64,000 nt of DNA from a bacterium (GCA_021796335.1 JAJYHZ010000002.1:100516-164515); one strand, 5' to 3'; shown: positions 35,640-57,176, counted from the first letter of the stretch. Notes: generated by a model not told the origin, from the sequence alone. A program made the numbers and translations.

Positions 35640-37100
35640 TTATTTTTCCCCGCCTGCAACGCTACGCCCGCCATTAAAATTGCCAAGCTGTCGGGCCGGT
35701 TTCTTCATATAAATAACAAATCCGCTTAGCGCGAGGTAATAGACGAACATTAGAATTACACTCATGTTTTTTATCTGAAAAAAATTTATTTTCCCGAAAA
35801 AATTGATAACGAATATTTCATAGGAAAGGAAAATATGCACGAACCAGCCGAAAACCAAAGAGAGCGGATAAGAAATAAAGCCAATCGCGCCGAGAATAAA
35901 TCCCAAGGTCATCGTGTACGGAATGAATCCCAAAATTAGAACATTAGCAACTATGGAAATGAAAGAAAAGTTGCTGAAACTGCGGATTAAAACAGGAATA
36001 ACCGCGAGCTGGGCGGAAACGGTCGTAAGAAAATTTTCCTTCCAATCCAAAATTCCTTTTTCATCGTTCACTTTAAAAAATTTTTTAACGGCAGGCATCA
36101 GATAAACAATTCCGATTAAAGCCAGAAAAGAAAGCTGAAAGCCTATATCGAATTTTAAAATTTTAGGGTTGCCGAGCGCCATTACAAAAGCGGCGGCGGC
36201 TATGGCATTCCGGAAACTGTAGATTCTGTTAACTTGAGCGGCCAGCAAAACTATGCCGCCCATAATGGCGGCGCGGACAACCGAGGCCTGAGCGCCGGTC
36301 ATCAAGACAAAAGAAAAAATCGCGAAAATGGAAAGAATAAAGGTCAGGCGCCGGGAAAAGAAAATTCCCAAAATGACGGAAATGGCGATTCCGATGATGC
36401 TGATGTTGTATCCGGATAATGCCACAAGATGCGTTGTGCCGCTTTGACTCATGGCGTTTTTAAAATCATTTGAAAATTCGCTCTGATCGCCCAAGGTCAA
36501 TCCGGACAAAAAAGCCGCCTGATCATAAGGCAGCACCTTCTGGAAATTGCCGATTATTTTTTGCCTGAGAGAAATCAACGCGGACTTGAAAGCAGATCCG
36601 TTATTTTGAGAAATTAAATTCGCTTTGGGATAACTGGAAATCCCCAGAAGATTATCTTTGTTATAATTTTGAGAACTGGCTTGCTTAATAACTCCTTCAA
36701 AACCGACCAAATCGCCGTATCGGAAATCGTTGTTCTTCGCGATAACAGAAATTTTCCCGGCCAAAGGCTTTTGCAAATCAACCGTAATTCGGTTCCAGTT
36801 CGAATCCAGAACGATTCCTCGGAAAGGAATTTCCCGATTATAAACTATTTTGGAATTTATTTTTTGATAATTTTGAAAGATGAAAAAATAAAACGATCCC
36901 GCGGCAACAAACAGAATAAATCCGCTGAAAATTAAAATTTTTTTGGGAAATTCCTTTCTTAAGAAATAAATCGCAAGGAAAATGAGCGAAGCCAATATCG
37001 CTGATAAAAACACGGAAAGAAAAGACAGTCCAGAACTTGCGAGAAAAATTCCGAAAAGGAAAAAAGCGATTGCATAAAAAACAGAATCGTAAAGGCGCAT
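35640..37100 (-). CDS. comEC_N: ComEC/Rec2 competence channel, membrane domain
   Basis: 486 aa polytopic protein with the Competence-domain TM core (GYNISIIGIAISVILG..., MTGAQASVVRAAIMGGI). It lacks the C-terminal MBL domain, which is the next gene. Confidence 0.7.
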   Translation of the reverse strand: MRLYDSVFYAIAFFLFGIFLASSGLSFLSVFLSAILASLIFLAIYFLRKEFPKKILIFSGFILFVAAGSFYFFIFQNYQKINSKIVYNREIPFRGIVLDSNWNRITVDLQKPLAGKISVIAKNNDFRYGDLVGFEGVIKQASSQNYNKDNLLGISSYPKANLISQNNGSAFKSALISLRQKIIGNFQKVLPYDQAAFLSGLTLGDQSEFSNDFKNAMSQSGTTHLVALSGYNISIIGIAISVILGIFFSRRLTFILSIFAIFSFVLMTGAQASVVRAAIMGGIVLLAAQVNRIYSFRNAIAAAAFVMALGNPKILKFDIGFQLSFLALIGIVYLMPAVKKFFKVNDEKGILDWKENFLTTVSAQLAVIPVLIRSFSNFSFISIVANVLILGFIPYTMTLGFILGAIGFISYPLSLVFGWFVHIFLSYEIFVINFFGKINFFQIKNMSVILMFVYYLALSGFVIYMKKPARQLGNFNGGRSVAGGEK

Positions 37101-50165: not shown

Positions 50166-51446
50166 ATGATGGATGGTATTCCAAAATCCAGAATTTTAAT
50201 CATCGCGATTATCGGTCTGATCCTGATATTTTTTCTTTTGGCCGTATTCGGCGTTTTTACTCCGAAAAGCAACCCCTCGACAAACGCCAATCTGGTCATT
50301 TGGGGAATTGACGACGCAAATGCGGCAGTTCCAGTTTTCAGCCAATACATGCAGCAAAATCCCGGAATAAAAATCTCCTATCGGCAATTCGATCCAAATC
50401 AAATCAAAAGCCAATTCATAAACGCGCTAGCTGCCGGAACCGGGCCAGACATTGTAATGATTCATAATGATTGGATTCCGACCCAATATGACAAACTAAC
50501 TCCCGCACCGCAGGGAACGATTTCTTCATCGCAAATCCAGCAGCTTTTCGCTCCCACGGCTTCGAATGATTTTATTTTGAATTATCAGGGGACGGACTAC
50601 ATCTATGCCTTGCCGCTTTATTTGGATTCACTGGCGCTGTTTTACAATAAAGATATTTTAAACAATAAGGGCGTGGCTCTTTTGCCGACAACCTGGGACG
50701 ATTTTAAAATTCTTGTTCCCAATTTAACCGAAACGGATTTAAATCATCAGATAAAAAAGGCGGGCGCCGCAATCGGCGGTTCGGGAAAATCAATTTTGAA
50801 CGCTTCTGATTTGCTGACTTTATTGATGATGCAAAACGGCTCGGCGATTTTCAATCCACAAACCAATCTGGCCAATTTTTCGGATCAGAATGGCAGCAAT
50901 GCTCTGAATTTTTACACTCAATTCGCCAATTCTAACAGCCCTTATTACACGTGGGATGACAGCCTGGGAAGCGACCTTGATTTGTTCGGCTCAGGTCAGG
51001 TTGCAATGATATTCGCTTATGCCCGCCAAATTCCGGCCTTGCAGGAAAAGAATCCTTATTTAAACTTCGGGGTTTCCGTAATGCCCCAATTGAATCCAAA
51101 TCAACCGGTTAACTTTGCGAACTACTGGGGTCTGGCGGTTTCAAAGCAAAGCGCCAATCCGCAAGCAGCTTGGAATTTTATAATCTGGTTGACAACCGAT
51201 CAGACCAATTCCCTTTCTTATTTGAAAGCGGTGAATGAATCCCCGGCTTTGCGAACTTTGATCGCCCAGTATCAAAACGATCCCGCCTTGGGCGCATTCG
51301 CAAAACAAGCCTTGACAGCAAAAACAATTTACAATATGAATGACAATTTTCGCCAAATTTTTTCCAATATGATAGAATCTGTTTTGAGTGGAAAAGCGGA
51401 TGTTAATACGGCACTGAGTCAGGCACAAGGTGCGATGAATCCTTAA
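50166..51446 (+). CDS. ABC-type sugar-binding protein (family 1 SBP), N-terminally anchored, no cognate permease nearby
   Basis: TM anchor, then an SBP_bac_1-like fold (LVIWGIDDANAAVPVFSQYMQQNPGIKIS...). 426 aa. Confidence 0.65.
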   Translation: MMDGIPKSRILIIAIIGLILIFFLLAVFGVFTPKSNPSTNANLVIWGIDDANAAVPVFSQYMQQNPGIKISYRQFDPNQIKSQFINALAAGTGPDIVMIHNDWIPTQYDKLTPAPQGTISSSQIQQLFAPTASNDFILNYQGTDYIYALPLYLDSLALFYNKDILNNKGVALLPTTWDDFKILVPNLTETDLNHQIKKAGAAIGGSGKSILNASDLLTLLMMQNGSAIFNPQTNLANFSDQNGSNALNFYTQFANSNSPYYTWDDSLGSDLDLFGSGQVAMIFAYARQIPALQEKNPYLNFGVSVMPQLNPNQPVNFANYWGLAVSKQSANPQAAWNFIIWLTTDQTNSLSYLKAVNESPALRTLIAQYQNDPALGAFAKQALTAKTIYNMNDNFRQIFSNMIESVLSGKADVNTALSQAQGAMNP

Positions 51447-51544: not shown

Positions 51545-51958
51545 ATGAAAAAAAATAATTTAATTAAACTTATTCCGATAATTTCCATTGCCAGCGCTGC
51601 TTTAAATTTTTCCCAATTCTATCAGACTTATGCCAAAGAAGATTCCACCACGGGTCTTGTTCGCTGCCACGGTCTCAATTGCAGCTTTTGCGACCTTATA
51701 TCTCTAGTCAGCAGATTGTTTAATACGGCTTATGAACTGGCCATCGCCATAGCCACTGTTTTGCTTTTGGTGGGCGCGATTCAGATTATGATTTCCGGAG
51801 CAAAACCCGGACTTTTGGAAAAAGGGAAAAAAACGATTACGGGGTCTGTTATCGGTTTGGTTATTCTGTTCGCTTCCTGGATTATTATTGACACAGTGAT
51901 TAAAATTTTAACCGGGGGAGCCGCATTCGGGCCGTGGAACGCTTTGCCGCCCTGCTAA
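51545..51958 (+). CDS. VirB2/TrbC-like pilin paralog 1
   Basis: Signal anchor plus two hydrophobic helices. LISLVSRLFNTAYELAIAIATVLLLVGAIQIM...GSVIGLVILFASWIIIDTVIKILTGGA parallels the VirB2 mature region (...KTLTGGG). Confidence 0.5.
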   Translation: MKKNNLIKLIPIISIASAALNFSQFYQTYAKEDSTTGLVRCHGLNCSFCDLISLVSRLFNTAYELAIAIATVLLLVGAIQIMISGAKPGLLEKGKKTITGSVIGLVILFASWIIIDTVIKILTGGAAFGPWNALPPC

Positions 51959-52060
51959 ATAACGAATAACTGATGGCAAGAAAAAAAATCGTCATTCTGA
52001 GAAAAACGGAGCAAAGCGAAGAATCTCATTTAAGGATAGGCTATATTTGATGCTCGCTAT

Positions 52061-52516
52061 TTGCCATTAGTTATTAATTTATTGTATATTTTGAAAATGG
52101 ATTATCTTACAGGAAAATTTTTACTGGGGATTTTTAAAATACAAAGGGTTTTTGCTTTTAATAATCCTTCCAGTAATACAGGGTCATTCAATAACCCAAC
52201 ATCTAATACGGGTTCGTTTAATAATCCAGGAGTAAACGGCGGAGGATCATCCCTTGTGATAAAACCGCCAACTTCTTACAACAATATCTACGACTTAATC
52301 AACGGCATTGCCAGCTATATAATCTGGATAGCCATACCTATTGCCACTATTATGATTATTTTCGGAGCTTACCAGATATTATTTTCAACAGGAGATCCGG
52401 CCAAGGTTAAAAAAGGAAGGGATACGATTTTATATTCTTTGGTGGGGTTAATGGTGGCATTGCTTGTTAAGGGAATTATTTCTATAATTAAGCAAGTTTT
52501 AGGAGTAAATAACTAA
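52061..52516 (+). CDS. VirB2/TrbC-like pilin paralog 2 (with NNPSSNTGSF repeats)
   Basis: Same two-helix C-terminal architecture (IIWIAIPIATIMIIFGAYQILFSTGDPAKVKKG...VGLMVALLVKGIISIIKQ). Low-complexity Asn/Ser/Gly repeats precede it. Confidence 0.5.
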   Translation: MPLVINLLYILKMDYLTGKFLLGIFKIQRVFAFNNPSSNTGSFNNPTSNTGSFNNPGVNGGGSSLVIKPPTSYNNIYDLINGIASYIIWIAIPIATIMIIFGAYQILFSTGDPAKVKKGRDTILYSLVGLMVALLVKGIISIIKQVLGVNN

Positions 52517-52522
52517 AATATA

Positions 52523-52900
52523 TTGAAAGGTCGCCAGAAATTATTCTATTTTATGAAAAAATTAGGAATCGGATTAATGGCAGCAGTTTTGCCGGCATTG
52601 GCAGCGGCGCAAACCGCTCCGCTAAATCAAGGTGGCATTCCTCCATCACTACCCGACACGAGCGTTAATTCATATGGCGGATTGATTGGATTTTTAAGCA
52701 CTGTCGGCAACTGGGCGTTTGGAATTTTGTTGGCTTTAGCAGTTTTATTCATTATTTATGCCGCTTATCTTTATCTTTTCTCGCAAGGAGGAGATAACAC
52801 CTCAAAAGCCAAGAGTGTTATTATTTACGCGATAGTTGCAATCGTAGTGGCTATTATTGCAAAAGGATTAGTGACAATTGCTCAAACCTTAGTTCACTGA
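52523..52900 (+). CDS. VirB2/TrbC-like pilin paralog 3
   Basis: Signal peptide MKKLGIGLMAAVLPALAAAQ, then AFGILLALAVLFIIYAAYLYLFSQGGDNTSKAKSVIIYAIVAIVVAIIAKGLVTIAQ. Confidence 0.5.
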   Translation: MKGRQKLFYFMKKLGIGLMAAVLPALAAAQTAPLNQGGIPPSLPDTSVNSYGGLIGFLSTVGNWAFGILLALAVLFIIYAAYLYLFSQGGDNTSKAKSVIIYAIVAIVVAIIAKGLVTIAQTLVH

Positions 52901-53096
52901 TCATTAAAATAAGAACAAAATTCCCCCAAAAGGGGATTTTTGTTTGGGTTTATTTAACTTAAGTTATTGGCTATTAGCTAGAGAATATTTTAACAGCTCA
53001 AATAAACAGCTAAAACTTTACAGTTCAACAGTAAATATAATTGATTCGTATAAATAATAAATTTATCCCATATATAAAGTTTATGTGCAGGAAATA

Positions 53097-53162: not shown

Positions 53163-53963
53163 TTACGACAATGATTTAATGGTCACCCTCCCTCCTACTG
53201 GCCCGGAGAACCGGATGACATCGCCGGAATGCACAGGCCAGTTTTGCTGATGAATCTCCACACGGTCATGCTCCACACCATTGGCGCTATAGATATGGGC
53301 CTGGGTGCCGTCCGGCCCTTTTACATCAGTTTTTCCGGCGGGGAAAGCCTTTGTAAAAAATGGCTTAGAGAGCTGGTCAAGGCCTTTCAGCTCGCAGGAC
53401 CACACCTTATAAGACGGCGTGGCGGTGGGAATTGAACTGGCCGCTATCTCTTCTTCATGCCCAGGCCTTATCTTATTCCAAGCCCATTTAAATGAGCTTG
53501 GGAAGATTATTGCCCAGACCACCCCGATGATTACAAGATAAGACACGGCTTTGAAAAACTTCTTCGCAGCCGGACCAGTCCCGTCAATCGACAACAAGAC
53601 AATCGGAACGGCCACAATAGCAACCATTCCCGGATGAAACGGTAGCCACGGCGAGAATATCGCCGCGAACATGACGACCACCAGCTCATAAAATATAATG
53701 CTGGCAATCCATGCTCGCGCCCTTTGGCCGATAATAGCAAGGAGTAAGGACCAGCCGATGGTCATAAAATACAGAAGTGCCAGTACCACCGGCACAAGCC
53801 CCACTATCGCTGTAGCGACCGGGCTGCCGTAATTAATTGCTACGATAACCGTGGCAATGGGCCAAAAAATTATTATCCGCAGGATCCATCTGGCCCACCG
53901 ATTGCCAGTATTCCATAGACGTACAACCAACTGCCATAATTCCTGTATTGACAATAAAATCAT
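53163..53963 (-). CDS. hypothetical membrane protein (GC-rich operon, gene 4)
   Basis: 4-5 TM helices, then a ~110-aa soluble C-terminal domain. GC-rich codon usage unlike the rest of the window. Confidence 0.55.
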   Translation of the reverse strand: MILLSIQELWQLVVRLWNTGNRWARWILRIIIFWPIATVIVAINYGSPVATAIVGLVPVVLALLYFMTIGWSLLLAIIGQRARAWIASIIFYELVVVMFAAIFSPWLPFHPGMVAIVAVPIVLLSIDGTGPAAKKFFKAVSYLVIIGVVWAIIFPSSFKWAWNKIRPGHEEEIAASSIPTATPSYKVWSCELKGLDQLSKPFFTKAFPAGKTDVKGPDGTQAHIYSANGVEHDRVEIHQQNWPVHSGDVIRFSGPVGGRVTIKSLS

Positions 53964-54562
53964 CTTATCCCCCTTTGGTCGAGAAAATTATTGAGGTGGC
54001 CTAAAACCCCGGCCACCCTGACATCGGCCTGCTGAAGCACAGCGGGCGCCTGTCGTATTCCCCTCCACGTCATCTGGAGGTACTGCTGAACCACATTGTG
54101 GTCCAAAAACTCCAGTATCCTGTCCCTTTCGGCGTCGGTCATGTGACCGATCTGCTTAAAAACTTCAAGCAGTTCGGTCTCGGGATCAAAATTCCCGAGC
54201 TTGAGATGACCAATCTTTCTTAGCAGTTCCTCTCCGTCCGGCCCGCCGATGCGGAGGATCATGAGGTAGAGTCGGGATAATAACTCCACGGCTTTGTTTT
54301 CATGCGGAACCCGTTGCAACCAGTCCAAAATATTCTGAGCCGCTTCCGGATCCGCATCCGCAAGAACTCTTTCGAGGAAGTGATATAATTTTTCGCGATG
54401 ATTCTCTTCTAATTCTTTCTGAAGAGTCTCACCGCCTTTTTTTACCCCCTCCTCGATAATGACTTTTGTGTGCTTTTTCACCTGTTCCTTTAATTCCTCG
54501 ACTATCGCGGTAACGACACCCGCGAAGCCAATCTCCTTCCAACTAATTCCAAATACACCCAT
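53960..54562 (-). CDS. hypothetical helical protein (GC-rich operon, gene 3)
   Basis: 200-aa ORF overlapping neighbours by 4 and 1 nt (translationally coupled). No family assignable. Confidence 0.55.
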   Translation of the reverse strand: MGVFGISWKEIGFAGVVTAIVEELKEQVKKHTKVIIEEGVKKGGETLQKELEENHREKLYHFLERVLADADPEAAQNILDWLQRVPHENKAVELLSRLYLMILRIGGPDGEELLRKIGHLKLGNFDPETELLEVFKQIGHMTDAERDRILEFLDHNVVQQYLQMTWRGIRQAPAVLQQADVRVAGVLGHLNNFLDQRGIR

Positions 54563-54563
54563 A

Positions 54564-55163
54564 TCAACCTCCTAAGTAAACTTTAACGGTTTGAATCGCC
54601 TTGCCGGCAATAAACCGTATTGTTTTTATACGTTCTGCCAGAGTGACTGAAATAGTTACTTCGGCATATCCTTCGCCATTGGCCGTAAGAACCTTTGGCT
54701 TTTTGCTATTTTCGTACATCTGAATCTGGAGGTACGGTATTGGCTTGTCTTCGGTGCTGACAACAATCGGGCGGAGCAGATATTTTCCTTTTTCAAGGAA
54801 TTTTTGCTGCACCCGGATGCACCCGACCTCAACCTTTGCGGGTTTTGGCGGCTCAGGAATGGACACGGAGTGGTAAGCTTCGCCGTGTCTGTTCTCCTCG
54901 ATAGCCTCAACCCTGTAAAATCCGGGTTTATCGAAAAAGATTTTTAGGCTTGCCTTGCCGTTGTTATCTGTCCGTTCCGGAGATTCACAATTGGTTCCAT
55001 TAATCCTGAATTGTACAGGATCATTGGAAACCGGCCAACTACCTTTTTTTACATCAACCAGCGCATGGATAAACCAGCGCTGACCTTCCTTTTGCGGATC
55101 CGTCAATGTCAGAAAAATCCTGACTGGCGGATCTGGTCTTCTTTGTTGTCGTGGTGTTGGCAT
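54564..55163 (-). CDS. hypothetical beta-sandwich (Ig-like repeat) protein (GC-rich operon, gene 2)
   Basis: Two internal repeats of strand-rich sequence (VQFRINGTN...YRVEAIEEN and IQMYENSKKPKVLTANGEGYAEVTISV). 199 aa. Confidence 0.5.
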   Translation of the reverse strand: MPTPRQQRRPDPPVRIFLTLTDPQKEGQRWFIHALVDVKKGSWPVSNDPVQFRINGTNCESPERTDNNGKASLKIFFDKPGFYRVEAIEENRHGEAYHSVSIPEPPKPAKVEVGCIRVQQKFLEKGKYLLRPIVVSTEDKPIPYLQIQMYENSKKPKVLTANGEGYAEVTISVTLAERIKTIRFIAGKAIQTVKVYLGG

Positions 55164-55394
55164 TTGAATCTCCTTTTTAATTTTTATCTTTCTCTCAGGT
55201 TTTTAGTTTTTAAAGACCTAAATTCCAGAGCGAGGATATATCCAGACTTGGATATATCTGTTCTGAAATTTTCTATATTATACCACTATTTGTTTTAAAG
55301 TCAATACCTCCGTTATGGTTCACCAGCTTGGAATCGGCCAGAAAAAAGGCGGCTTTAGAAAGCCGCCATCTATATAAAACAAGGGGAAATGAAA

Positions 55395-55892
55395 TTACCG
55401 CTTAATCCCTCTTTTTTCAAGCTCGAGCCGAACTCCTTTAATAAGTCCAGCGACGTTTTCGTCCAGTTGCCTGAACGAGTCGCCGGCGTTTTCGGCGAAA
55501 GTTCTTCCCTGAAGAACTTTGAGGCGAGTTTTTAAATCGCCTATATCGAGCTCGGCAAAGCCATTCAGTGCCTGCTTGATTTCTTCCGGTGTTCTGGAAG
55601 AAGCCAGGAAACTGACATGACCCGCCAATCCGTTGATTAAGCCATCGCCTTCTTTGTTTTTTCCGAGTTCGGACAAGTGCCCGAACATCTTGTTTTGCAT
55701 CACCGAATCCAGCTGACCGATGAAAGCAAATAGCTGATTCCGATCGGTTGTTATAAATGTCTTTGGGTGCTCTGTCATAAGCGCGCCCTTTGCGCCCACG
55801 CCACTCGCTGCTGTTTCTCTTAAAAAACTCTTTGCAAAATCTATTAAGCCCTTTTTAAAAGTACTCATATCTTTTCCTCCTTGGAAAAGCAA
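55395..55892 (-). CDS. hypothetical protein (GC-rich operon, gene 1)
   Basis: 165 aa. The start may be MSTFKKGL at 55869. No family assignable. Confidence 0.5.
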   Translation of the reverse strand: MLFQGGKDMSTFKKGLIDFAKSFLRETAASGVGAKGALMTEHPKTFITTDRNQLFAFIGQLDSVMQNKMFGHLSELGKNKEGDGLINGLAGHVSFLASSRTPEEIKQALNGFAELDIGDLKTRLKVLQGRTFAENAGDSFRQLDENVAGLIKGVRLELEKRGIKR

Positions 55893-55950: not shown

Positions 55951-56031
55951 GGGCAGGTGGCGAAATGGCAAACGCACTAGCTTTAGGAGCTAGCGCCGCA
56001 AGGCTTGCGGGTTCAAGTCCCGCCCTGCCCA
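55951..56031 (+). tRNA. tRNA-Leu(TAG)
   Basis: GGGCAGG acceptor pairs with CCTGCCC. Anticodon loop TTTAGGA (TAG), long variable arm, GGTTCAAGTCC T-arm. Confidence 0.85.
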
Positions 56032-56080
56032 CTATTTTTAATTTTTAATTTACTACTATTATTCTGCTATTATTTTTCTC

Positions 56081-56130: not shown

Positions 56131-57036
56131 CTAACTTCTCCTGCGAGCGTGAAAAGTCTTGTGAATTTCTTTCAACTCTTTATTAGTTAAATGCGTATAA
56201 ATCTGCGTCGTTGAAATATTAGAATGACCAAGCAGTTCTTGCACCGAACGCAAGTCAGCTCCGTTGATTAAAAGATCGGTAGCAAAGGAATGACGCAATA
56301 AATGCGGATGAACTTTTTTTGAAATGCCGGCCTTGCGGGAATAGAAATCAACCAGGCGCTGGATTGCGCGCGGAATAATCCGGCCGATGACTTTCGGGCT
56401 TTTCGCCTTGGTCAAACTTATAAACAACGCTTCTTCGGCATCAGAGCGCTTATCTAAATACTCTCTGATAAATTTTTTGGCGCGATCGGAAAGAAACACA
56501 ACCCGCAACTTACTCCCCTTTCCGCGGACACTTAGTTCTCCTCTTTCCAAATCAAAATAACGATTTAAACTGCAAAGTTCTGAAACGCGCAGCCCGGTGG
56601 AAAACAATAATTCCAAAATTGCCTTATCGCGGAGAGATTTCAAATCATCTCCATTCGGAGAACTCAGCAATCTTTCAAGTTCATCATATTCAATAGTTTC
56701 TATTTGGCGCGTCGGAATTTTTGGAAGCTCGATTTTATCCGGCGATAAAGTTGAAAAATCATTTTTATTTAGATATTTCAGAAAATTTCTTATGGCAATA
56801 ATGTAATAACTTTGCGTTGTCTTTTTAAACGATTCACCTTCAATATTTTCAAGCCGGGCAAGATAGATCCGGAAATCGCGAATTTTATCTATTGCAATAT
56901 CCGATTCATTTTTAATATTCCCAAACTCAAAAAATTTTTTTAAATATCTTTCGTAATTAGCCCGGGTTTTAGGCGAGCGATTTTTTTCAATTTCCAAGTA
57001 GTCCAAATAGTTTTTAAGAAGACGGTTTATTTCCAT
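56131..57036 (-). CDS. xerD: XerC/XerD-type tyrosine recombinase
   Basis: N-terminal LDYLEIEKNRSPKTRANYERYLKKF and C-terminal HPHLLRHSFATDLLINGADLRSVQELLGHSNISTTQIYTHL (R..HxxR..Y). Start taken at MEINRLL; the longer track ORF reads through a parS-like inverted repeat. Confidence 0.8.
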   Translation of the reverse strand: MEINRLLKNYLDYLEIEKNRSPKTRANYERYLKKFFEFGNIKNESDIAIDKIRDFRIYLARLENIEGESFKKTTQSYYIIAIRNFLKYLNKNDFSTLSPDKIELPKIPTRQIETIEYDELERLLSSPNGDDLKSLRDKAILELLFSTGLRVSELCSLNRYFDLERGELSVRGKGSKLRVVFLSDRAKKFIREYLDKRSDAEEALFISLTKAKSPKVIGRIIPRAIQRLVDFYSRKAGISKKVHPHLLRHSFATDLLINGADLRSVQELLGHSNISTTQIYTHLTNKELKEIHKTFHARRRS

Positions 57037-57176
57037 TAGGATAATCATACAATAATCTGTCGCAAAATAAAATGTTTCACGAATTATGTGAAACATTTTT
57101 CCCATAGTTTCCCCAATTAGTATCAGTTCTAATTAAATAGGCATTTTAGAGGTATTTTAGCAAAAACGGCAAAACC

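What the first reader, a model, noticed from the sequence alone, without database searches (positions are those of the whole stretch)
51545..52900. Three tandem paralogous VirB2/TrbC-like pilin genes without other type IV secretion genes in the window
All three encode a signal anchor followed by two hydrophobic helices separated by a short polar loop. The mature parts parallel VirB2 (e.g. ...SWIIIDTVIKILTGGA versus Agrobacterium ...FGASFLGKTLTGGG). Paralog 2 carries NNP(S/T)SNTGSF tandem repeats. A triplicated conjugative-pilin-like gene array in a minimal genome suggests a T4SS-like or pilus surface structure. That could matter for an episymbiotic lifestyle or DNA uptake. The ATPase and channel components must be elsewhere, if present.
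Basis: inference. Interest (0 to 1): 0.6.

Follow-up and report, generated by a model that had tools for sequence, protein, structure and literature searches.

The report
Tandem VirB2-like pilin genes, Patescibacteria
Three neighbouring small genes encode membrane "pilin-like" proteins of a family already known from ultra-small Patescibacteria, so this is a further example of a described gene array. The one new detail is that in this lineage the array always sits beside a solute-binding-protein gene and away from the secretion machinery.

Summary
ORFs 51545-51958, 52061/52097-52516 and 52523/52553-52900 (+ strand) each score above the gathering threshold for Pfam PF18895 (T4SS_pilin). Each has an export signal, a variable segment and a two-helix hydrophobic hairpin with a short positively charged loop. 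They are 20-30% identical to each other. No other type IV secretion gene lies in the window or in about 8 kb of contig beyond its left end.

GyrA places the genome in Wolfebacteria-like Paceibacteria (Patescibacteria). Tandem arrays of divergent VirB2-like pilins in this phylum are published: essential in Southlakia epibionticum, and 441 arrays in 383 assemblies. This is therefore a new member of a known kind.

Three things were found here. The three genes are old, separately conserved orthogroups. The operon SBP_bac_1 + pilin array next to gyrA recurs in 36 of 38 evaluable metagenome loci with at least 2 pilins, and no locus carries a VirB4-like gene. The first pilin type has four invariant cysteines.

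Two relatives with the same module are listed as VirB4-positive. A role with a type IV secretion system encoded elsewhere is plausible, but it is inferred rather than shown for this genome.

The parts
50166..51446 (+). SBP_bac_1 / SBP_bac_8 solute-binding-fold protein (426 aa) with an N-terminal transmembrane anchor. It is the conserved upstream partner of the pilin array and probably the first gene of the operon.
   Evidence: Pfam E 1.4e-31. A homologue sits directly upstream of the array in L089, L091, L092, L093, L094 and L084. The same holds in 36 of 38 evaluable metagenome arrays with at least 2 pilins. Stop and start codons overlap in L093 and L094. It is 40-50% identical to the Wolfebacteria-lineage orthologues.
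51545..51958 (+). Pilin type A (137 aa): signal peptide, then a GLVxC..C..C motif, a two-helix hairpin, and a C-terminal GPWN.L..C tail.
   Evidence: PF18895 at 37.1 bits. There is an AGGCGAGG ribosome-binding site upstream. It is the first gene of the array in every related locus, with orthologue scores of 55-92 bits against 15-46 bits to its own paralogs. C41, C46, C49, C137, W112, D116, P130 and W131 are invariant in six genomes. The AF2 model shows a hairpin at 46-86 / 88-123.
52097..52516 (+). Pilin type B (139 aa from ATG 52097; 151 aa if TTG 52061 is used): weak signal sequence, Asn/Gly/Ser-rich repeat linker, two-helix hairpin.
   Evidence: PF18895 at 43.1 bits. Orthologues are at position 2 in the 3-gene arrays and at position 5 in the 5-gene arrays. 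AF2 gives helices 60-95 / 101-135 with pLDDT 79-87. Public gene calls vary between 86 and 139 aa.
52157..52246 (+). Three 10-residue peptide repeats inside pilin B: FNNPSSNTGS, FNNPTSNTGS, FNNPGVNGGG.
   Evidence: Units 1 and 2 differ at 7 synonymous and 1 non-synonymous codons, including an AGT/TCT serine switch. The repeat lies in the disordered linker of the model.
52553..52900 (+). Pilin type C (115 aa from ATG 52553; the ORF opens at TTG 52523): canonical signal peptide MKKLGIGLMAAVLPALAAA/Q followed by a two-helix hairpin.
   Evidence: PF18895 at 33.1 bits. Orthologues are at position 3 in the 3-gene arrays and at position 4 in the 5-gene arrays, scoring 66-91 bits. Hydropathy profile.
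52917..52940 (.). Terminator-like hairpin followed by a T-run, closing the operon.
   Evidence: No terminator-like site was found between the three pilin genes.

Best explanation
The locus is a four-gene operon in a Wolfebacteria-like Paceibacteria (Patescibacteria) chromosome. It encodes a membrane-anchored SBP_bac_1-fold protein followed by three divergent VirB2-like 'T4SS pilins' of Pfam PF18895.

Shown: each pilin has an export signal, a variable exposed segment, and a hairpin of two hydrophobic helices joined by a short, net-positive loop. That loop charge implies a topology with both termini outside and the loop inside, as in VirB2.

Shown: the three genes are not recent duplicates. They are three old, separately conserved orthogroups (A, B, C). 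This points to distinct, non-redundant subunits rather than interchangeable antigenic variants.

Inferred, by homology with the essential pilin array inside the Saccharibacteria T4SS cluster: the proteins are inserted through Sec, cleaved, and then used by a monoderm-type T4SS (VirB4, PrgI/VirB3, VirB6-like) encoded elsewhere in the genome. In Paceibacteria that system is typically near dnaA. Together they would build a surface filament or channel extension that contacts the host cell.

Inferred: the co-transcribed SBP-fold protein is a surface partner, either ligand-binding or host-binding.
For: Family membership: PF18895 above threshold for all three. 126 of 127 array pilins from related loci hit PF18895, and 48 of them also hit TrbC/VirB2 PF04956.

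Architecture.

Link to T4SS in relatives: across 80 Saccharibacteria loci, arrays of 3-8 pilins lie within 10 kb of a VirB4-like ATPase in 49 loci (Pfam P-loop_TraG/AAA_10). A PrgI-family protein is nearby in 55 loci and a roughly 990-aa protein in 67.

[quoted passage not shown] PMC12102498 reports 441 arrays of 2-11 pilins with a mean identity of 25%, and the pilin lies near virB4 in only 1135 of 1948 assemblies.

Taxonomy: the best named GyrA hits, at 70-80% identity, are Wolfebacteria or Patescibacteria.

Conserved module: gyrA-SBP-pilins in L089, L091, L092, L093, L094 and L084, and in 36 of 38 metagenome arrays.

Orthogroups.

VirB4 elsewhere in relatives: Wolfebacteria GW2011_GWC2_39_22 and RIFOXYD12_FULL_48_21 carry the module and are marked 'Presence of VirB4: Yes'. 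The paper places virB4 near dnaA/dnaN in Paceibacteria.
Against: - No T4SS core gene was seen in the window or in any of the 7 Wolfebacteria-lineage loci. The same is true of the 80 metagenome loci. The physical link to a T4SS is therefore absent in this lineage.
- VirB4 in this very genome could not be checked (one search was uninformative).
- Direct similarity to bona fide VirB2 is not significant.
- Sequence-profile searches of the PDB find no solved pilin.
- Fold searches return only generic helical hairpins, best E 0.89.
- No pilus built from these proteins has been observed in any Patescibacterium (PMC12857230).
- The constant SBP partner is unexplained by a T4SS model.
Confidence: 0.6

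Rival explanations
1. In this lineage the SBP-plus-hairpin operon is a self-contained surface or membrane module that works without the T4SS. For example, an SBP-fold receptor or adhesin could be held or presented by oligomers of the hairpin proteins, or the module could be an unconventional uptake or sensing device. The PF18895 fold would then have been co-opted from T4SS pilins.
For: SBP_bac_1 lies directly upstream in 36 of 38 evaluable arrays, and stop/start codons overlap in L093 and L094. VirB4-like and PrgI-like genes are found in 0 of 80 metagenome loci and 0 of 7 Wolfebacteria-lineage loci. No ABC permease or ATPase gene lies beside the SBP. An SBP homologue also flanks two T4SS-linked arrays, L075 and L020. 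Pilin hairpins occur fused to large extracellular domains such as an NHL propeller.
Against: Homologous arrays in Saccharibacteria sit inside T4SS clusters, mostly without an SBP: 78 of 80 loci lack one. Relatives carrying the module do have VirB4. Part of the gene neighbourhood could simply be inherited synteny next to gyrA. In L090 the same SBP is followed by a type IV pilus operon and no T4SS_pilin gene, so the SBP is not strictly tied to these proteins.
Confidence: 0.2
2. The three genes are interchangeable major-pilin variants kept for antigenic or host-range variation. This is the model proposed for Bartonella and Anaplasma VirB2 paralogs, and suggested for Patescibacteria in PMC12102498.
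For: Paralog identity is low, at 20-30%. The exposed linkers are variable and include a repeat. Array size varies from 1 to 5 between relatives. The pilins evolve faster than GyrA: 34-51% against 78% identity to L089.
Against: Each paralog has its own conserved orthologue across genomes, with cross-genome scores well above between-paralog scores. Type A is always first and has invariant Cys, Trp and Asp positions. That is the pattern of fixed, specialised subunits, not of a rapidly turning-over variant pool.
Confidence: 0.12
3. They are type IV pilus (class III signal peptide) pilins or pseudopilins, or unrelated small hydrophobic ORFs.
For: The proteins are small and have hydrophobic N-termini. 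The genome lineage does have type IV pilus genes (L090).
Against: There is no N_methyl hit and no G/FTLxE prepilin motif (sequences). A two-helix hairpin is not the T4P pilin fold. All three pass the PF18895 threshold and have orthologues in many genomes.
Confidence: 0.02

Closest known systems
Patescibacteria VirB2-like pilin arrays (Pfam PF18895 T4SS_pilin). Examples: S. epibionticum ML1 SEML1_0006-0019 (Wang et al. 2023, PMC10633639) and the survey by Quinonero-Coronel et al. 2025 (PMC12102498).
   Same: Same Pfam family. Same architecture of signal peptide, variable segment and hairpin. Same tandem arrangement of paralogs at about 25% identity, and same phylum.
   Different: This array is not in a T4SS cluster. 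It is operonic with an SBP_bac_1 gene next to gyrA. It consists of three anciently fixed orthogroups, one of which carries a 4-Cys signature. It comes from class Paceibacteria, whereas the studied examples are Saccharimonadia.
TrbC/VirB2 conjugative pilins of diderm T4SSs (Pfam PF04956), e.g. Agrobacterium VirB2.
   Same: Small size, a cleaved signal, and a two-helix hairpin with a short basic loop. A third of related CPR pilins cross-hit the PF04956 model.
   Different: The window proteins are below threshold for PF04956. Pairwise and profile-profile similarity to rhizobial VirB2 is not significant. The host is a monoderm with no outer-membrane complex. Cyclisation and pilus formation are unknown.
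Mbov_0395 / MMCAP2_0565 pilin-like conjugal transfer protein of Mycoplasma ICEs (NCBIfam NF045849).
   Same: A hairpin protein from a monoderm conjugation system. Paralogs 2 and 3 match it at E 3e-6 and 3e-5 over nearly the whole 80-position profile.
   Different: The scores of 26.7 and 23.6 bits are below the curated cut-off of 40. It is ICE-borne and single-copy, not a chromosomal array.
Archaeal conjugation (Ced-type) pilus subunit of Aeropyrum pernix, PDB 8dfu.
   Same: Helical-hairpin pilin. It is the only pilus subunit among the top 10 fold matches for both models (ranks 10 and 7, TM-score 0.61-0.62 normalised to the target).
   Different: The match is not significant (E 2.9-4.0). It cannot be told apart from generic hairpins such as ATP synthase subunit c.

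Membership tests
Pfam PF18895 T4SS_pilin (Patescibacteria VirB2-like pilins) | Profile HMM score above the curated gathering threshold (26.6 bits) | tested here: met
   37.1, 43.1 and 33.1 bits. The precomputed Pfam labels on the source contig agree.
Pfam PF18895 T4SS_pilin (Patescibacteria VirB2-like pilins) | N-terminal export signal, variable segment, and two hydrophobic helices joined by a short polar or basic loop | tested here: met
   Hydropathy and AF2 models. The signal of paralog 2 is atypical.
Patescibacteria 'VirB2 array' as defined in PMC12102498 | 2-11 pilin genes in tandem, or separated by one gene, with highly divergent paralogs (mean about 25% identity) | tested here: met
   Three adjacent genes at 20-30% identity. 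The definition is quoted.
Patescibacteria T4SS gene cluster | Pilin genes within about 20 CDS of virB4, PrgI/VirB3, VirB6 or TrsD | tested here: not met
   No such gene in the 64-kb window or in the left extension. None in syntenic loci of relatives either.
Patescibacteria T4SS gene cluster | VirB4 ATPase present somewhere in the same genome | not testable with these tools
   Only the window and about 8 kb of the 236-kb contig beyond its left end could be read. The VirB4 profile search saturated with Saccharibacteria hits. Two relatives with the module are VirB4-positive according to PMC12102498 Table S1.
TrbC/VirB2 (Pfam PF04956) | Profile HMM score above the gathering threshold (27.9 bits) | tested here: not met
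   11.6 bits (E 0.34), 13.1 bits (E 0.12), and no hit for paralog 3. At family level, 48 of 127 related pilins hit at E<=0.01.
TrbC/VirB2 (Pfam PF04956) | Detectable homology to experimentally characterised VirB2 | tested here: not met
   BLASTP against Agrobacterium VirB2 gives E 0.052 over 29 residues. hhalign against 4 rhizobial VirB2/TrbC sequences gives probability <=1%. No PDB sequence hit.
TrbC/VirB2 (Pfam PF04956) | Assembly into an extracellular conjugative pilus; processing or cyclisation of the propilin | not testable with these tools
   Needs microscopy and mass spectrometry.
Type IV pilus pilins (class III signal peptide, Pfam N_methyl) | Prepilin-peptidase motif G/(F,M)TLxE at the N-terminus, or an N_methyl HMM hit | tested here: not met
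   No N_methyl hit at E<=1. The motif is absent from the sequences.
NCBIfam NF045849 Mbov_0395 pilin-like conjugal transfer protein | Score above the curated cut-off (40 bits) | tested here: not met
   26.7 and 23.6 bits for paralogs 2 and 3.

The most novel reading that the evidence does not exclude
In Wolfebacteria-like Paceibacteria the VirB2-like hairpin proteins have been uncoupled from the T4SS locus. They are fixed as a three-subunit set (A, B, C) in an operon with a membrane-anchored solute-binding-fold protein. Together these would form a distinct surface apparatus in which an SBP-fold receptor or adhesin is presented by, or signals through, a heteromeric hairpin filament or pore. The type A subunit's invariant N-terminal and C-terminal cysteines would staple its two outward-facing ends, a disulfide (or metal) substitute for the head-to-tail cyclisation of T-pilin and TrbC.
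Probability: 0.15. Interest if true: 0.6.

Novelty: new member of a known kind. Interest (0 to 1): 0.3.

Why it matters
The Patescibacteria T4SS and its pilin array are essential for epibiotic growth in the one species tested, yet their function is unknown. This locus adds nothing categorically new to that picture.

It does show that in a large environmental lineage (Wolfebacteria/Paceibacteria) the pilin genes are inherited as three fixed subunit types. They sit in an operon with an SBP-fold protein and away from virB4. That argues for a heteromeric structure over simple antigenic variation. It also nominates the SBP-fold protein as a candidate partner to test.

Tried and rejected
- **VirB4 in the same genome.** I searched with a profile of 15 Saccharibacteria VirB4 sequences and looked for hits on the 276,964- or 236,449-bp contig. 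The search saturated at 8000 hits, the 120 listed were all Saccharibacteria-like, and none lay on those contigs. Uninformative.
- **Contig extension.** Reading about 8 kb beyond the left window end showed PNPase, RuvA, a Mur ligase and DAC, with no T4SS gene. I did not read the right side. It begins with the genes for ribosomal proteins S7 and probably S12, so rpoC and rpoB are expected next.
- **Solved structures by sequence.** Profiles A2 and A4 returned no pilin.
- **Plasmids.** tblastn of the paralog 2 hairpin against 72,556 plasmids found no match.
- **Viral contigs.** A scan found no relative, so there is no sign of phage cargo.
- **Genomic island.** I considered an island bounded by tRNA-Leu (55951-56032) and the 'phage integrase' (56131-57105). 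I rejected it because that recombinase is 69-74% identical and syntenic in relatives, so it is Xer-like housekeeping.
- **Intergenic motif.** The 37-nt sequence GTCATTCTGAG...GAAGAATCTC between paralogs 1 and 2 occurs only once in the window. I did not pursue it.
- **Organism names.** Cluster look-up returned no names. Taxonomy came from the GyrA homologues instead.
- **Cysteine geometry.** I could not measure Cys-Cys distances in the type A model because coordinates are not exposed. pLDDT is also low in those segments.

Full report
**1. What is there**

Three ORFs lie on the + strand at exactly the coordinates given: 51545-51958, 52061-52516 and 52523-52900. Each matches Pfam PF18895 (T4SS_pilin) above the gathering score of 26.6, at 37.1, 43.1 and 33.1 bits. 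TrbC/VirB2 (PF04956) appears only below threshold, at E 0.34 and 0.12. NCBIfam gives sub-threshold matches of paralogs 2 and 3 to the Mycoplasma ICE 'Mbov_0395 pilin-like conjugal transfer protein', at E 3e-6 and 3e-5.

Pilin HMMs that I built from relatives hit only these three among the 251 window ORFs of at least 50 aa.

The proteins are distant paralogs:
- p1-p2: 30% identity, E 2e-11
- p2-p3: 30% identity, E 7e-5
- p1-p3: undetectable pairwise

Hydropathy and two AlphaFold models agree on the architecture. There is an N-terminal hydrophobic signal, a low-confidence linker, and a hairpin of two long hydrophobic helices with pLDDT about 75-87. The helices are joined by a 5-12-residue loop that is net positive. 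By the positive-inside rule, both termini face outward and the loop faces the cytoplasm, which is the membrane topology of VirB2-type propilins.

**2. Gene starts and the repeat**

Paralog 1 has a good Shine-Dalgarno sequence. Public gene calls disagree for paralog 2 (86 or 139 aa) and paralog 3 (107 or 125 aa).

The repeat FNNPSSNTGS / FNNPTSNTGS / FNNPGVNGGG lies at 52157-52246. Units 1 and 2 differ at seven synonymous codons, including an AGT/TCT serine switch, and at only one non-synonymous codon. The segment is therefore translated, and the long form of paralog 2 (start at 52097 or 52061) is the real product. Paralog 3 needs the start at 52553 (or 52523) to keep its canonical signal peptide MKKLGIGLMAAVLPALAAA/Q.

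A terminator-like hairpin follows paralog 3 at 52917-52940, and none lies between the three genes.

**3. No other T4SS gene nearby**

Pfam scans of 30 further window ORFs, including all of 300 aa or more, return housekeeping functions. These include GyrA, a ClpB/ClpC-like ATPase, EF-G, RNase J, aminoacyl-tRNA synthetases, ComEC and two solute-binding proteins.

From 80 Saccharibacteria loci I built HMMs for four T4SS-cluster proteins: the VirB4-like ATPase (Pfam P-loop_TraG/AAA_10), the PrgI-family protein, a roughly 990-aa protein and a 319-aa protein. None hits any window ORF even at E<=10.

The window comes from a 236-kb metagenome contig, ENA ERZ27233565 k141_687534. About 8 kb of that contig beyond the left window end is also free of T4SS genes.

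**4. Whose genome**

The closest named GyrA homologues, at 70-80% identity, are from Candidatus Wolfebacteria and 'Patescibacteria group' bacteria. The genome is therefore a Wolfebacteria-like member of class Paceibacteria. It is not a Saccharibacterium, although the word-index search for paralog 2 first led to Saccharibacteria pilins.

**5. Comparison with relatives**

*Saccharibacteria.* The 80 loci carry arrays of 3-8 tandem pilin genes. Within 10 kb of the array, 67 loci have the roughly 990-aa protein, 55 have a PrgI-family protein and 49 have a VirB4-like ATPase. Of 127 array pilins, 126 hit PF18895 and 48 also hit TrbC/VirB2 at E<=0.01, best 8.6e-9. This family-level bridge is what ties PF18895 to VirB2.

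*Wolfebacteria lineage.* I looked up the contigs that encode the GyrA of six relatives.
- Five of the six show the same layout as the window: Lactamase_B_3 - small ORF - gyrA - SBP_bac_1 - 3 or 5 T4SS_pilin genes. In four of these five, a few variable minus-strand genes and a Xer-like recombinase follow.
- A sixth syntenic locus, L084, came from the genome-contig scan. Its GyrA is 54% identical to the window's, and it carries the SBP gene followed by four pilins.
- The remaining relative, L090, has a type IV pilus operon after the SBP gene and no T4SS_pilin gene.
- None of these loci has a T4SS core gene within 10 kb.

*Unbiased sampling.* I scanned JGI metagenome contigs with the type A pilin motif and obtained 80 loci. 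Of the 38 evaluable arrays with at least 2 pilins, 36 have an SBP homologue directly upstream on the same strand, and 35 have gyrA in the locus. None of the 80 loci has a VirB4-like or PrgI-like ORF. The recurrent large ORFs are housekeeping genes.

**6. The triplication is old**

Cross-genome bit scores show one-to-one orthology. Window p1, p2 and p3 score 92, 91 and 91 bits against their L089 counterparts, and 73, 69 and 67 bits against those of L091. Scores between paralogs are only 15-59 bits.

- Type A is always the first gene.
- In the five-gene arrays, type B is last.
- In the five-gene arrays, type C is fourth, with two extra C-like copies at positions 2 and 3.

Type A has an invariant signature in six genomes: LV-x-C, C-x2-C just after the signal peptide, W-x3-D in helix 2, and a C-terminal PW..L..C.

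The pilins (34-51% identity to L089) and the SBP (50%) evolve much faster than GyrA (78%). That is what would be expected of exposed surface proteins.

**7. What is known**

Wang et al. [quoted passage not shown] They note that Gram-positive conjugative T4SSs normally lack a pilus.

Quinonero-Coronel et al. 2025 (PMC12102498) used PF18895 and PF04956 across 3,035 genomes. They report:
- VirB2-like pilins in 1,948 VirB4-positive assemblies, near virB4 in 1,135 of them
- 441 arrays of 2-11 pilin genes in 383 assemblies, with a mean identity of 25%
- a suggested role in host-range versatility

The same paper places virB4 near dnaA/dnaN in Paceibacteria. Its Table S1 marks Wolfebacteria GW2011_GWC2_39_22 and RIFOXYD12_FULL_48_21 as VirB4-positive. 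Identical GyrA sequences tie both genomes to loci carrying the gyrA-SBP-three-pilin module.

A 2025 review calls the possible pilus of these monoderm systems an open question (PMC12857230). A 2024 perspective states that the role of the Saccharibacteria T4SS is completely unknown (PMC11665869).

The paper's main text does not mention an SBP or gyrA association.

**8. Interpretation**

Membership in PF18895, and in the published 'VirB2 array' class, is established.

The most likely function is inferred from homology and from the essential Saccharibacteria system. On this reading the three proteins are Sec-exported, membrane-inserted subunits used by a monoderm-type T4SS encoded elsewhere. With it they build a surface filament or channel extension toward the host. 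The orthogroup pattern shown here favours three specialised subunits over interchangeable antigenic variants.

The weak points are as follows:
- There is no physical linkage to T4SS genes anywhere in this lineage.
- Direct similarity to characterised VirB2 is not significant.
- No solved relative exists.
- Fold matches are uninformative.
- The constant SBP partner is unexplained.

The main rival is that the SBP-pilin operon is a T4SS-independent surface module in this lineage.

**9. Verdict**

This is a new member of a known kind, with one modest new detail: the conserved, virB4-detached SBP + A/B/C pilin operon and the 4-Cys type A pilin.

Noticed in passing
window 50166-51446, with L089, L091-L094, L084, L075, L020 and L099-L178: A TM-anchored SBP_bac_1-fold gene is almost always directly upstream of the pilin array in the Wolfebacteria-like lineage (36 of 38 evaluable arrays). 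It lies directly downstream of two T4SS-linked arrays, L075 and L020. There are no ABC permease or ATPase genes beside it. The association is not mentioned in the main text of the 2025 survey paper.
   Followed up: partly
L150:2286-4097; L119:6724-8106; L108:9788-10867; L102:8800-12483: Some relatives encode T4SS_pilin hairpins fused to large extra domains. One is a 603-aa protein with an NHL/beta-propeller region ahead of a C-terminal hairpin. Others are 344-460-aa pilins with long extensions. The hairpin may serve as an anchor or pilin module for displayed domains.
   Followed up: partly
L090:12524-20011: In one relative (GyrA 75% identical) the gyrA-SBP pair is followed by a complete type IV pilus operon: PilB-like T2SSE, PilC-like T2SSF, N_methyl pilins and a Peptidase_A24 prepilin peptidase. 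No T4SS_pilin gene is found within 10 kb.
   Followed up: partly
window 51545-51958 (type A pilin): Four cysteines (C41, C46, C49, C137) are invariant across six genomes. Three follow the signal peptide and one is at the extreme C-terminus. Both ends should face outward, so a disulfide or metal site could tie them together, mimicking pilin cyclisation. Untested.
   Followed up: partly
window 53163-55892 (- strand): Four ORFs (266, 200, 199 and 165 aa) have no above-threshold Pfam or PHROG family; the only Pfam hit is a sub-threshold Big_1 match in the 199-aa ORF, and the only PHROG hit a marginal one (E 0.01) in the 200-aa ORF. GC is 0.45 against about 0.40 for the window. They are poorly conserved among relatives, which have different small genes at this position, so this is a variable spot between the pilin operon and the Xer-like recombinase.
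   Followed up: partly
window 55951-56032 and 56131-57105: tRNA-Leu(tag) sits next to a 'phage integrase' family gene, which looks like an island boundary. However, the recombinase is 69-74% identical and syntenic in relatives, so it is probably a housekeeping Xer-type recombinase.
   Followed up: yes
window 35640-37100 (- strand): A ComEC competence channel gene (Pfam Competence, E 1.8e-48) is followed by a metallo-beta-lactamase-fold gene. DNA uptake machinery separate from any T4SS is therefore present.
   Followed up: no
window 51991-52027: The 37-nt motif GTCATTCTGAGAAAAACGGAGCAAAGCGAAGAATCTC lies in the p1-p2 spacer. It is unique in the window, and its significance is unknown.
   Followed up: partly
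P0142, P0149, P0202 and P0250 (GyrA homologues): Several related GyrA proteins are 1197-1336 aa long and carry intein or homing-endonuclease domains (PF14890, PF14528). The window's GyrA (813 aa) has none.
   Followed up: no
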